Shown here: positions 19,070 through 24,589 of the stretch, one piece after another | Layout of the letters: each line of letters opens with the position of its first letter | Numbering within the stretch: position 1 is the first letter of the stretch | NCBI RefSeq assembly: GCF_058153355.1 | Contig: NZ_CM177019.1 | DNA length: 64,000 nt | Reading direction: 5' to 3' (one strand) | Notes under the pieces: model-generated | Told to the model about the DNA's origin: nothing | The model's input: the letters and a program-made list of their open reading frames with translations, nothing else | Databases searched by the model: none | Translations under genes and position numbers: made by a program

Positions 19070-20035
19070 TTATTTTTCTGCACTACGCAGGGATATTTCA
19101 CCGCCCATCCAGGGTTTTATTATTCCATCCTGCTCAAGCAATAAAGCGCCTTGTTTGTCTATTCCGCGTGAAATGCCAAATATTTCTTTATCACCAATGA
19201 TAAGTTTCACTGGGCGATTAATAAAATTATCCAGTTTTTCCCAGCGCGACAGATAAGGTGCCAATCCTTCTTGCTCGAAGAGTTCCAGCGCCGCACGTAA
19301 TTCACGTATTAGCATGGCCGCCAACGCATTACGATCGAGATTGATCCCAGCTTCCTGAAGCGTGATCCACCCCTGATTAACGATATTCTCTTCAACACGA
19401 CGCATTGCCATGTTGATCCCGGCACCAATGACTATTTGCGCCGCATCGCCGGTTTTGCCAGTCAGCTCCACAAGAATACCTGCCAGCTTGCGATCCTGCA
19501 GATAGAGGTCATTCGGCCATTTAACACGAACTTTATCAGCGCCCAACTTGCGTAATACTTCCGCCATCACGATACCGATAACCAGACTTAAACCAATCGC
19601 CGCAGCCGGGCCTTGTTCCAGACGCCAGAACATCGACAAATATAAGTTTGCGCCAAAAGGTGAAAACCATTTCCGACCTCGGCGACCACGTCCTGCCTGC
19701 TGGTATTCAGCAACGCAGGCATCACCCGATTTAAGCTCTCCGATACGATCAAGAAGATACTGATTCGTGGAGTCAATAACGGGCAGCACGGCTACACTAC
19801 CGCTATCCAGCTGACTCAATATCTGTTCAGCATTAAGTAACTGGATGGGCTCAGGCAGGCTGTATCCTTTACCCGGAACGGTAAAGACATCAACGCCCCA
19901 GTCACGCAGTGTTTGAATATGTTTATTAATGGCCGCCCGGCTCATTCCTAACGTTTCACCCAGCTGCTCACCAGAGTGAAATTCGCCATTCGCTAATAGC
20001 GTGATTAATTTTAGCGGAACGGTATTATCCTTCAT
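19070..20035 (-). CDS. birA: bifunctional biotin-[acetyl-CoA-carboxylase] ligase and biotin operon repressor
   Basis: 321-aa [53 protein letters not shown]... Confidence 0.96.
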
Positions 20036-21060
20036 GAAATCGTCTCCACTGCGCTAACTTCACCTGATGTACCAATAAAGCGAACTTCTGGCTCAAGCCA
20101 GACATTAAATTTTTCACCCACTTTCTGTCTTACATGATGTGCCAGCTGCACAATATCTTCGCTTTTTGCATTGCCTTCATTAATGAGAACTAACGCCTGT
20201 TGACGGTGTACCGCAGCCCCACCAATTTGTGTTCCTTTTAGCTGGCACTGATCGATAAGCCAACCAGCGGCCAGTTTTACTGAACCATCCGTCTGGGGAT
20301 AATTTGGTGCTGTTGGAAATTGTGCCAGTAATGCTTTAGCCGTTTCGGCAGATACAACAGGGTTTTTGAAGAAACTACCGGCATTGCCATTCACTTTTGG
20401 ATCAGGGAGTTTGGTGGTGCGCATATGACACACCGCATCAAATACTTGCTGTGGCGTTACGGTTGTAGGATCCAGACGAGTTAAGTCACCATACGTTAGT
20501 ACAGGTTGCCACTCTTTTGGCAGGCGCAGACCTACGGCTACAATGGCGAAGCGGTCCTGGTATTCATGTTTAAAAATACTGTCGCGATAGCCAAAACGGC
20601 ACTCTTTGGCAGTTAAGCGCACTTGCTTGCCTGTCGCCAGTTCGACACAGTCAACATAAGCGCAAACTCGCTGTAATTCTACGCCATAAGCACCAATATT
20701 CTGGATAGGTGATGAGCCGACACAACCAGGAATTAACGCCAGATTTTCCAGACCTGGCATACCTTCCTGCAAAGTGTATTTTACCAGTCGATGCCAGTTT
20801 TCTCCGGCTCCTACATGTAAATACCACGCATCAGGTTCATCATGAATTTCGATACCTTTGATCCGGTTGATGATCACCGTGCCGCGATAGTCTTCCAGAA
20901 AAAGTACATTACTTCCTTCACCCAGAATAAGAACGGGTTGCCCTTCTGCGGTTGCATGCTGCCAGGCATTGAGTAGTTGTTGTTCGTCTTCGGCACATAC
21001 AATGTGCTGAGCATTATGATCAATGCCAAATGTGTTCCAGGGTTTTAAGGAGTGGTTCAT
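20032..21060 (-). CDS. murB: UDP-N-acetylenolpyruvoylglucosamine reductase
   Basis: 342-aa ORF; 4-bp overlap with birA. Confidence 0.96.
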
Positions 21061-21149: not shown

Positions 21150-21180
21150 ACGCAAAAAGGCCCAGTCTTCCGACTGGGCC
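21150..21180 (-). terminator. rrnB operon terminator (hairpin GGCCCAGTC-GGAA-GACTGGGCC followed by TTTTTGCG)
   Basis: Stem-loop plus U-run 15 nt downstream of 5S rRNA 3' end. Confidence 0.8.
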
Positions 21181-21194
21181 TTCTGCTTAATTTG

Positions 21195-21314
21195 ATGCCT
21201 GGCAGTTCCCTACTCTCGCATGGGGAGACCCCACACTACCATCGGCGCTACGGCGTTTCACTTCTGAGTTCGGCATGGGGTCAGGTGGGACCACCGCGCT
21301 AAGGCCGCCAGGCA
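21195..21314 (-). rRNA. rrfB: 5S ribosomal RNA
   Basis: 120 nt; reverse complement starts TGCCTGGCGGCC...and ends ...GGGAACTGCCAGGCAT. Confidence 0.95.
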
Positions 21315-21500
21315 AATTCCTGTGCTCTGTCCTGTGTCTTTTGTGCTGATACTGCGTTGGCTGCATTCGCGAAAATCAGTCACATACTTCAGTATGCTCC
21401 TTCCTTCGCTTCATTTGCCGCCTTGTCTCAGCGCAAAATCCTTCGGACTCTGGATCCAAGCTGAAATTCTCTCAATCCGCCAAAACACCTTCGGCGTTGT

Positions 21501-24405
<2,905 letters not shown>

Positions 24406-24589
24406 TCACAACCCGAAGATGTTTCACTTCTGATTGCGAAAATTTGAGAGACTCACGAACAACTTTCATTGTTCAGTGTTTCAATTTTCAGCTTGATCCA
24501 GATTTTTAAAGAGCAAATATCTTAAACATGACTCGTAAGTCATCTTTAACGATATTAAGGTCGGCGACTTTCACTCACAAACCAGCAAG

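What the first reader, a model, noticed from the sequence alone, without database searches (positions are those of the whole stretch)
21315..21500. 23S-5S spacer of rrnB is 186 nt, about twice the K-12 length, and carries an ERIC-like repeat
From the mapped ends of 23S (21501) and 5S (21314) the internal spacer is 186 nt, whereas K-12 rrn operons have about 92 nt as I recall. The first 40 nt after 23S resemble the K-12 rrnB spacer, then the sequence diverges. The extra DNA contains a segment (21354-21425) that is about 70% identical, with preserved block spacing, to part of the rplJ leader (11933-12005). Shared blocks are GCGTTGGC, CAGTCACATA, TATGCTCC and TTGCCGCCTTG. Both copies resemble the conserved end of ERIC/IRU elements (compare ERIC2/ERIC1R primer sites CGCTCACCCCAGTCACTTACTT / ATGTAAGCTCCTGGGGATTCAC). 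A repeat embedded in an rRNA precursor spacer would be transcribed at very high level and might affect 5S processing.
Basis: partly seen in the sequence, partly recalled or inferred. Interest (0 to 1): 0.45.

Follow-up and report, generated by a model that had tools for sequence, protein, structure and literature searches.

The report
ERIC-derived hairpin in 23S-5S spacer
The rrnB 23S-5S spacer here is the "long" allele, in which an old ERIC mobile-element copy forms a 120-nt RNA hairpin where E. coli K-12 has a small one; the allele occurs in about 7% of E. coli genomes and many related genera, so it is real and tidy but not exotic.

Summary
The spacer (21315-21500, minus strand) is 186 nt; K-12 rrnB has 92. 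Spacer nt 50-175 align collinearly with the 127-nt ERIC consensus. The core (21352-21425) is 58/76 identical, score 59 against 15.8±2.2 for shuffles. The matching rplJ-leader segment is a full-length ERIC (11907-12030, 100/127) that K-12 also has.

The allele is not special to this strain. The insert occurs in 368 of 5426 complete E. coli genomes, including BL21 and HS, in rrnA, rrnB or rrnC. Only 22 genomes have it in rrnB with this downstream sequence. The same allele, at the same site and orientation, is found in at least 12 other genera.

It folds into a 120-nt hairpin (z = -6.35) that starts where the 23S processing stem ends and stops 14 nt before 5S. That is the position of K-12's 24-nt hairpin. 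Across 29 alleles, 97% of cells pair, 12 of 34 pairs show compensatory changes, and G·U outnumbers A·C 64 to 3. This points to selection on the sense pre-rRNA.

The most likely role, inferred and not shown, is the upstream stem-loop that RNase E needs to mature 5S.

The parts
21501..24405 (-). 23S rRNA gene of rrnB
   Evidence: Rfam LSU_rRNA_bacteria, 2865.9 bits, full length
21315..21500 (-). 23S-5S internal spacer (ITS2), 186 nt, long allele
   Evidence: K-12 rrnB has 92 nt.
21449..21500 (-). Spacer nt 1-52: 3' strand of the extended 23S processing stem. It is alignable with K-12.
   Evidence: In a composite fold, these nt pair with the ITS1 3' part. K-12 nt 1-55 do the same.
24406..24515 (-). 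ITS1 3' part that pairs with spacer nt 1-52 and, in the prediction, with nt 173-178
   Evidence: Composite fold. Overlaps the Rfam StyR-44 hit at 24413-24511.
21326..21451 (-). ERIC-derived element, 126 nt (spacer nt 50-175), in the sense orientation of the consensus as published by Wilson and Sharp
   Evidence: Collinear global alignment to the 127-nt consensus, 78/127 identical
21352..21425 (-).
   Evidence: 58/76 identical, score 59 against shuffles 15.8±2.2, max 26
21329..21448 (-). 120-nt imperfect hairpin formed by the element in the pre-rRNA
   Evidence: MFE -42.2 kcal/mol, z = -6.35, 0 of 200 shuffles as stable.
21377..21400 (-). Apical block GGAGCAUAC-NNNN-GUAUGUGACUG. The stem and flanks are nearly invariant and the 4-nt loop varies.
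   Evidence: Invariant or nearly invariant columns in the 29-sequence, multi-genus alignment A1
21315..21328 (-). Tail AGAGCACAGGAAUU between the hairpin and 5S; presumed RNase E site 'a' region. It is unpaired in the spacer-only fold, while the composite fold pairs nt 173-178 with ITS1.
   Evidence: Unpaired; partly paired. ACAG(A/G)AAUU is conserved against K-12. The cleavage site itself is from established knowledge and was not tested.
21195..21314 (-). 5S rRNA gene (variant CCUU at nt 11-14)
   Evidence: Rfam 5S_rRNA, 93.2 bits; 120-nt sequence compared with K-12
21154..21180 (-). Single terminator hairpin GGCCCAGUC-GGAA-GACUGGGCC followed by a T run
   Evidence: Read directly from the sequence. 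The consensus scan did not flag it.
11907..12030 (-).
   Evidence: 100/127 identical to the consensus, score 109 against 16.5±2.2. The leader differs from K-12 at 4 of 412 nt. Weak Rfam V_AS5 hit.
12045..12073 (-). Sigma-70-like promoter TTGTCT-17-TATAAT, consistent with the known L10 promoter. It ends about 15 nt upstream of the ERIC copy.
   Evidence: 10/12 consensus match. Its identity as the L10 promoter is from memory.

Best explanation
The extra DNA is an old, degenerate, full-length ERIC (IRU/RU-1) miniature inverted-repeat element fixed in the 23S-5S spacer in the sense orientation. In the pre-rRNA it folds into a 120-nt imperfect hairpin. The hairpin starts where the long-range 23S processing stem (ITS1 paired with spacer nt 1-52) ends, and it stops 14 nt before 5S. 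It therefore replaces the 24-nt hairpin of the K-12 spacer, which lies in the 5' domain of the 9S precursor. Shown here: the ERIC origin, the fold, its position, its cross-genus conservation with compensatory changes, and its occurrence in different rrn operons. Inferred: the hairpin is transcribed with the operon and left in a longer 9S-like precursor after RNase III cuts the 23S stem. It then serves as the upstream stem-loop that positions RNase E on the ACAGGAAUU tail to release p5S, and is degraded afterwards. Also inferred: the long and short alleles persist side by side and move between operons and lineages by gene conversion or recombination.
For: ERIC identity: core score 59 against 15.8±2.2; 126 nt collinear with the 127-nt consensus; the consensus is from PMC2759123. 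Fold: (z = -6.35). Position. In both alleles the first 52-55 nt pair with ITS1, then comes the hairpin (53-172 here, 58-81 in K-12), then 11-14 nt before 5S. Conservation: the anchored scan returned 42 loci. Of these, 33 (28 distinct sequences, 29 with the window) carry the same element at the same site and orientation. They come from Enterobacter, Pseudocitrobacter, Citrobacter, Salmonella arizonae and diarizonae, Pseudenterobacter, Kosakonia, Trabulsiella, Klebsiella, Phytobacter, Leminorella and Pantoea. Structure under selection: 97.2% of cells are paired and 12 of 34 pairs have changes on both sides, with 0 of 500 shuffles reaching this and slid controls giving 2-7. G·U cells number 64 against 3 A·C cells, which points to the sense RNA. 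Among type-1 alleles from 10 genera, the hairpin is 89% identical against 78% for the adjacent processing-stem strand. Mobility among operons: rrnB here, rrnC in strain 2013C-4282, rrnA in HS. The insert is in 368 of 5426 genomes, at 1-5 places each. [quoted passage not shown] In ERIC-less spacers of Yersinia, Brenneria and others, the same position holds a simple hairpin of variable sequence with compensatory changes.
Against: No RNA data were available, so no cleavage site in the long spacer is mapped, and the RNase E role rests on position and analogy. ERIC is palindromic by origin, so part of the pairing is inherited. The three outer-arm subtypes could reflect separate insertions or allele exchange and not in-situ compensation. 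The alleles are related and may move horizontally, so the shuffle control overstates significance. The outer arms of this allele match the ERIC ends only weakly (my hand count from the alignment: 23 of 52), and no TA target duplication is visible. The short allele works well in most E. coli, so the ERIC hairpin is not required.
Confidence: 0.7

Rival explanations
1. Neutral passenger. The ERIC copy is selfish DNA that landed in a permissive part of the spacer. It is tolerated because it folds on itself and is discarded with the spacer. Its apparent conservation reflects young alleles spreading by gene conversion and horizontal transfer, not selection for a role.
For: The short allele is the majority state in E. 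coli, since the insert is in only 368 of 5426 genomes. The allele sits in different operons in different strains. Two or more subtypes coexist in one genome, for example S. arizonae L007 and L008, and K. indica L024 and L025. The E. coli and Pseudocitrobacter hairpins are 98% identical while the flanking stem strand is 81%, which could mean recent transfer.
Against: There are 12 pairs with compensatory changes and 97% pairing across at least 12 genera. The 64:3 excess of G·U over A·C is strand-specific. The apical stem is invariant while its loop varies. The element is far from the ERIC consensus (61% overall), so it is old, yet it has not decayed structurally.
Confidence: 0.25
2. The hairpin has its own function beyond guiding RNase E. 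It could be an RNase III substrate that adds a cleavage between 23S and 5S, a protein-binding site, or the source of a stable spacer-derived small RNA.
For: The block GGAGCAUAC-NNNN-GUAUGUGACUG is invariant across genera, which is more than a plain hairpin needs. A weak Rfam hit of the rplJ ERIC copy to the Vibrio RNA V_AS5 shows that ERIC-like RNAs have been detected as discrete transcripts.
Against: The longest uninterrupted helix is only about 6-7 bp, with many internal loops. No Rfam family matches the spacer even at E ≤ 10. The same core is also the best-conserved part of ERIC copies generally, so its invariance may be an ERIC property. No expression data were available.
Confidence: 0.1
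3. The resemblance to ERIC and to the rplJ leader is chance or low-complexity similarity, and the long spacer is an unrelated insertion or an assembly artefact.
For: The ERIC2 primer sequence is not found in the window even with 3 mismatches. Overall identity to the consensus is only 61%.
Against: Alignment scores lie 14-19 standard deviations above shuffles. Order, spacing, length and orientation are preserved. The same allele is present in hundreds of independent complete genomes.
Confidence: 0.01

Closest known systems
[quoted passage not shown] 1991, Wilson and Sharp 2006, as cited in PMC2759123 and PMC3184786)
   Same: The length (126 against 127 nt), the collinear sequence with the strongest match in the central core, the imperfect palindrome folding into a long hairpin, and the location in a transcribed non-coding region.
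   Different: It is very degenerate (61% overall, 76% in the core). The ERIC2 primer site is not recognisable. The terminal repeats and TA duplication are not visible in this allele. It sits inside an rRNA operon at one fixed site shared by many genera, and it evolves with compensatory changes. This behaviour fits a resident structural RNA element better than a mobile copy.
[quoted passage not shown]
   Same: The position is the same: directly after the 23S processing-stem strand and 11-14 nt upstream of 5S, followed by the conserved ACAG(A/G)AAUU.
   Different: It is 120 nt against 24 nt, and there is no sequence similarity (K-12 spacer against ERIC scores 16, against shuffles 14.4±2.2). Cleavage of the long precursor has not been examined.
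ERIC copies in Yersinia mRNAs that alter transcript fate through RNase E (De Gregorio et al. 2005, as summarised in PMC3184786)
   Same: An ERIC hairpin co-transcribed with neighbouring genes and linked to RNase E cleavage nearby.
   Different: Those copies modulate mRNA decay and depend on orientation. Here the substrate is a pre-rRNA spacer, the outcome would be maturation, and only one orientation is seen.
Intervening sequences (IVS) in 23S rRNA genes of Salmonella and Yersinia (from memory; not checked here)
   Same: Extra hairpin-forming DNA inside rrn operons, present in some operons and strains but not others, transcribed and then removed during processing.
   Different: IVS lie within mature 23S helices and cause rRNA fragmentation after RNase III excision. 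This element lies in the spacer and leaves the mature rRNAs unchanged.

Membership tests
ERIC / IRU (RU-1) element | Significant sequence similarity to the 127-nt consensus, strongest in the central core | tested here: met
   Spacer core: 58/76 identical, score 59 against 15.8±2.2. rplJ copy: 100/127, score 109 against 16.5±2.2. The consensus is from PMC2759123.
ERIC / IRU (RU-1) element | Unit length of about 127 bp | tested here: met
   Spacer nt 50-175 (126 nt) align collinearly with a single 1-nt gap, 78/127 identical.
ERIC / IRU (RU-1) element | Imperfect palindrome able to form a long stem-loop | tested here: met
   120-nt hairpin, -42.2 kcal/mol, z = -6.35.
ERIC / IRU (RU-1) element | Terminal inverted repeats flanked by a TA target-site duplication (PMC3184786) | tested here: inconclusive
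   By my hand count on the alignment, the outer 26 nt on each side match the consensus at only 23 of 52 positions, and no flanking TA is seen in this allele. Citrobacter and Klebsiella alleles retain more (ERIC 10-117, starting TAGTAC...).
ERIC / IRU (RU-1) element | Recognisable ERIC1R/ERIC2 primer sites | tested here: not met
   ERIC2 with up to 3 mismatches gives 0 matches in the window. The core carries GCATAC...GTATGT where the consensus has GCTTAC...GTAAGT. This is a practical marker and not a defining property.
ERIC / IRU (RU-1) element | Extragenic location within a transcription unit | tested here: met
   It lies between 23S and 5S of rrnB. The second copy lies downstream of the L10 promoter-like site.
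ERIC / IRU (RU-1) element | Dispersed multi-copy family within the genome | not testable with these tools
   Only 64 kb of this genome is available. Two copies were found in it.
9S-precursor upstream stem-loop (RNase E guide structure) | Stable stem-loop just 5' of a single-stranded A/U-rich cleavage region next to 5S | tested here: met
   Predicted folds. The hairpin ends 14 nt before 5S, against 11 nt in K-12.
9S-precursor upstream stem-loop (RNase E guide structure) | RNase E cleavage 3 nt upstream of mature 5S that depends on the structure | not testable with these tools
   This needs in-vitro cleavage or in-vivo end mapping.
Rfam-curated RNA family | A match at or above a family's gathering score | tested here: not met
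   No match in 21300-21520 even at E ≤ 10.

The most novel reading that the evidence does not exclude
The ERIC copy in the spacer has been domesticated. It would be a selectively maintained pre-rRNA element, either the RNase E guide hairpin for 5S maturation or a protein- or RNase III-binding module. It would have been kept as a trans-species polymorphism alongside the short allele in Enterobacteriaceae rrn operons since before the genera diverged. That would be a clear case of a bacterial MITE recruited into ribosome biogenesis.
Probability: 0.35. Interest if true: 0.55.

Novelty: new member of a known kind. Interest (0 to 1): 0.33.

Why it matters
It shows that a mobile-element hairpin five times larger can replace the small hairpin in the 5' domain of the 5S precursor in nature. 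That hairpin is thought to be needed for RNase E recognition. Strains such as BL21 and HS carry both alleles in one cell and could serve as a ready-made test system. It also explains length heterogeneity of the 23S-5S spacer, which matters for ribotyping, ITS-based typing and rrn assembly. The two ERIC copies in this window lie in very highly expressed translation-apparatus transcripts. If the structural conservation reflects function, this is a case of a bacterial MITE recruited into rRNA processing. If not, it is an ordinary old repeat in a permissive spot.

Tried and rejected
Literature. Searches for ERIC together with the 23S-5S spacer, rrn operons, rplJ or ITS2 found nothing relevant (one search was malformed). 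Wilson and Sharp 2006, Antón et al. 1999 (under the PMC id I recalled, which may be wrong) and De Gregorio et al. 2005 are not held. I therefore cannot say whether this spacer allele has been described. My recollection that Antón et al. reported ITS-2 variation in ECOR rrnB is unverified.

Rfam. No family matches the spacer.

Canonical ERIC copies in the window. None was found with the ERIC2 primer at up to 3 mismatches. The short block searches found only the two copies above background.

Coding or promoter reading. Short ORFs overlap the spacer, including a 67-aa antisense ORF in what looks like the usual ERIC reading frame. Single-base indels among alleles argue against coding. No promoter- or terminator-like site lies in the spacer.

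Short hairpin as an ERIC remnant. The K-12 spacer shows no ERIC signal (score 16 against 14.4±2.2), so I did not pursue this.

rplJ-leader ERIC in other genera. None of the fetched loci reaches rplJ, and I ran no further search on it.

Full report
**What is there.** The window is an E. coli chromosome segment. On the minus strand it reads btuB-murI-rrnB-murB-birA ... thrU-tyrU-glyT-thrT-tufB-secE-nusG-rplKAJL-rpoB. Rfam places 23S at 21501-24405 and 5S at 21197-21312. Read against the K-12 rrfB annotation, 5S is 21195-21314. The internal spacer is therefore 21315-21500, 186 nt. K-12 rrnB has 92 nt. Spacer nt 1-52 and the last ~9 nt align with K-12, and the middle does not.

**The repeat is real.** The four quoted blocks lie at a constant offset. 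The local alignment of the spacer against the rplJ leader scores 51, against 16.6±2.4 for 1000 shuffles.

**It is ERIC.** I took the 127-nt E. coli ERIC consensus from Table 1a of PMC2759123.
- The spacer core (nt 76-149, window 21352-21425) matches consensus positions 27-101 at 58/76. The score is 59 against 15.8±2.2, and only one orientation matches.
- In a global alignment, spacer nt 50-175 (126 nt) is collinear with the whole 127-nt consensus at 78/127.
- The rplJ-leader copy is full length (window 11907-12030, consensus 1-125, 100/127, score 109 against 16.5±2.2).
- That copy starts about 15 nt after a TTGTCT-17-TATAAT promoter-like site.
- The leader differs from K-12 at only 4 of 412 nt, so this copy is part of the ordinary E. 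coli leader.
- Both copies share GCATA...TATGTGACTG where the consensus has GCTTA...TAAGTGACTG. This is a compensated change in the apical stem. It explains why the ERIC2 primer sequence is not found even with 3 mismatches.
- The K-12 92-nt spacer shows no ERIC signal.

**How common it is.** The insert alone (21330-21465) is found in 368 of 5426 complete E. coli genomes, at 606 places, 1-5 per genome and always chromosomal.
- These include B strains (BL21-AI, T7 Express; 3 places each) and HS.
- It lies in rrnC in strain 2013C-4282, where the insert is 100% identical to the window, and in rrnA in HS.
- The arrangement seen here, long spacer plus this 5S-to-murB sequence, occurs in only 22 genomes.

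**Other genera.** I ran an unbiased scan of one genome per species for spacers of 165-195 nt between the conserved 23S end and 5S start. It gave 42 loci.
- Of these, 33 loci (28 distinct sequences) carry the same ERIC-bearing spacer at the same site and orientation.
- They come from Enterobacter, Pseudocitrobacter, Citrobacter, Salmonella arizonae and diarizonae, Pseudenterobacter, Kosakonia, Trabulsiella, Klebsiella (three species), Phytobacter, Leminorella and Pantoea.
- Three subtypes differ in the outer arms: GTCC...GGAC as here, GTACGCAAT...ATTGCGTAC, and GGAACGAA...TTCGTTTC. Different subtypes coexist within single genomes.

**Structure.** Alone, the element folds into a 120-nt imperfect hairpin (21329-21448). 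Its energy is -42.2 kcal/mol, z = -6.35, and 0 of 200 shuffles fold as well.
- I folded a composite of the ITS1 3' part, the linked 23S ends, the spacer and 5S. In it, spacer nt 1-52 pair with ITS1 to extend the 23S processing stem, the hairpin begins at nt 53 and ends at nt 172, and 14 nt remain before 5S.
- K-12 gives the same architecture, with nt 1-55 paired to ITS1, a 24-nt hairpin at nt 58-81 and 11 nt before 5S.
- So the ERIC hairpin occupies the slot of the small hairpin in the 5' domain of the 9S precursor.

**Conservation.** In the 29-sequence alignment A1, RNAalifold recovers the hairpin.
- 97.2% of cells are standard pairs and 12 of 34 pairs have changes on both sides. None of 500 shuffles reaches this on any measure, and slid registers give 2-7 such pairs and 31-47% pairing.
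- Examples are columns 97/174 (A-U 18, G-C 11), 77/195 (C-G 17, A-U 9) and 119/150 (A-U 19, C-G 8).
- Within the hairpin, G·U cells outnumber A·C cells 64 to 3. This is expected if the sense RNA is what is constrained, and not DNA or the antisense strand.
- Among type-1 alleles from 10 genera, the hairpin is 89% identical (outer arms 95%), against 78% for the adjacent processing-stem strand.
- The block GGAGCAUAC-NNNN-GUAUGUGACUG is essentially invariant while its 4-nt loop varies.
- Caveats: ERIC is palindromic by origin, the alleles are related and may be exchanged between species, and the subtypes could be separate insertions. The covariation is therefore strong but not conclusive evidence of selection in place.

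**Mechanism.** 9S RNA is cut twice by RNase E to give p5S. [quoted passage not shown] ERIC hairpins co-transcribed with genes in Yersinia are reported to create RNase E sites (PMC3184786). In ERIC-less long spacers of Yersinia, Brenneria, Symbiopectobacterium and Escherichia sp. ESNIH1, the same slot holds a simple hairpin. Its sequence varies but its pairing is kept. This suggests that what matters there is a hairpin followed by ACAGAAUU. I therefore propose that the ERIC hairpin acts as the upstream guide stem-loop for RNase E cleavage next to 5S, and is discarded afterwards. This step is inferred, because no RNA data were available. The main rival is that it is a tolerated passenger. Less likely, it has a separate role as an RNase III substrate, a protein-binding site or a stable spacer RNA.

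**Negative checks.** No Rfam family matches the spacer. There is no promoter- or terminator-like site in it. The overlapping short ORFs are not supported, because alleles differ by single-base indels.

**Novelty and verdict.** ERIC elements, their hairpins and their presence in transcripts are known. The allele sits in many public genomes, including standard laboratory strains. I found no paper describing an ERIC in the 23S-5S spacer or in the rplJ leader, but the key ERIC papers are not in the library. I file it as a new, or at least uncatalogued, member of a known kind. Interest is modest. The finding is correct and its cross-genus structural conservation is neat and testable. However, it is neither rare in enterobacteria nor mechanistically surprising.

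Noticed in passing
window 21154-21194 (minus strand), compared with L001 7758-8060: Downstream of 5S, this rrnB has a single terminator hairpin (GGCCCAGTC-GGAA-GACTGGGCC plus a T run). K-12 rrnB has T1, about 170 nt that include a remnant of the 5S 3' end, and then T2. The window looks like a T1/T2 recombinant that lost the intervening segment. The consensus terminator scan did not flag the hairpin.
   Followed up: partly
window 21301-21304 (5S nt 11-14): The 5S variant is GGCGGCCUUAGCG. K-12 rrfB has CAGU at these positions, and rrnC of strain 2013C-4282 has CCGU. The variant is not linked to the long spacer.
   Followed up: no
L032 647-853, L033, L026, L027, L029, L030, L006: A second, unrelated kind of long (172-186 nt) 23S-5S spacer occurs in Yersinia aleksiciae, Brenneria alni, Ca. 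Symbiopectobacterium and Escherichia sp. ESNIH1. It has a conserved block of about 75 nt forming four small hairpins in the 5' half, and no ERIC. There is a weak Rfam hit to AaHKsRNA22 (E = 0.007, below threshold).
   Followed up: partly
window 11909-12026 (minus strand): The rplJ-leader ERIC copy gives a sub-threshold hit to Rfam RF02818 V_AS5, a Vibrio antisense RNA (32.9 bits, E = 2.7e-5). That Rfam family may therefore be ERIC-derived. The rest of the leader (11701-11942) hits RF02858 Arrc08 from Actinobacillus (E = 2e-9).
   Followed up: no
window 11907-12073 (minus strand): The ERIC copy starts only about 15 nt after the -10 box of the promoter-like site for rplJ, so the 5' end of the L10 leader RNA would be largely an ERIC hairpin. 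I did not check whether this copy exists outside Escherichia, because no fetched locus reaches rplJ.
   Followed up: partly
window 19070-21060: murB-birA is at least 99% identical to only 6 of 5420 matching E. coli genomes, 95-99% to most, and 90-95% to 532. The source strain may belong to a less commonly sequenced lineage.
   Followed up: no
L012 (Pseudenterobacter timonensis) 2636-2843: This spacer allele looks chimeric, with a type-1 5' outer arm and a type-3-like 3' outer arm. This suggests recombination between spacer alleles within a genome.
   Followed up: no
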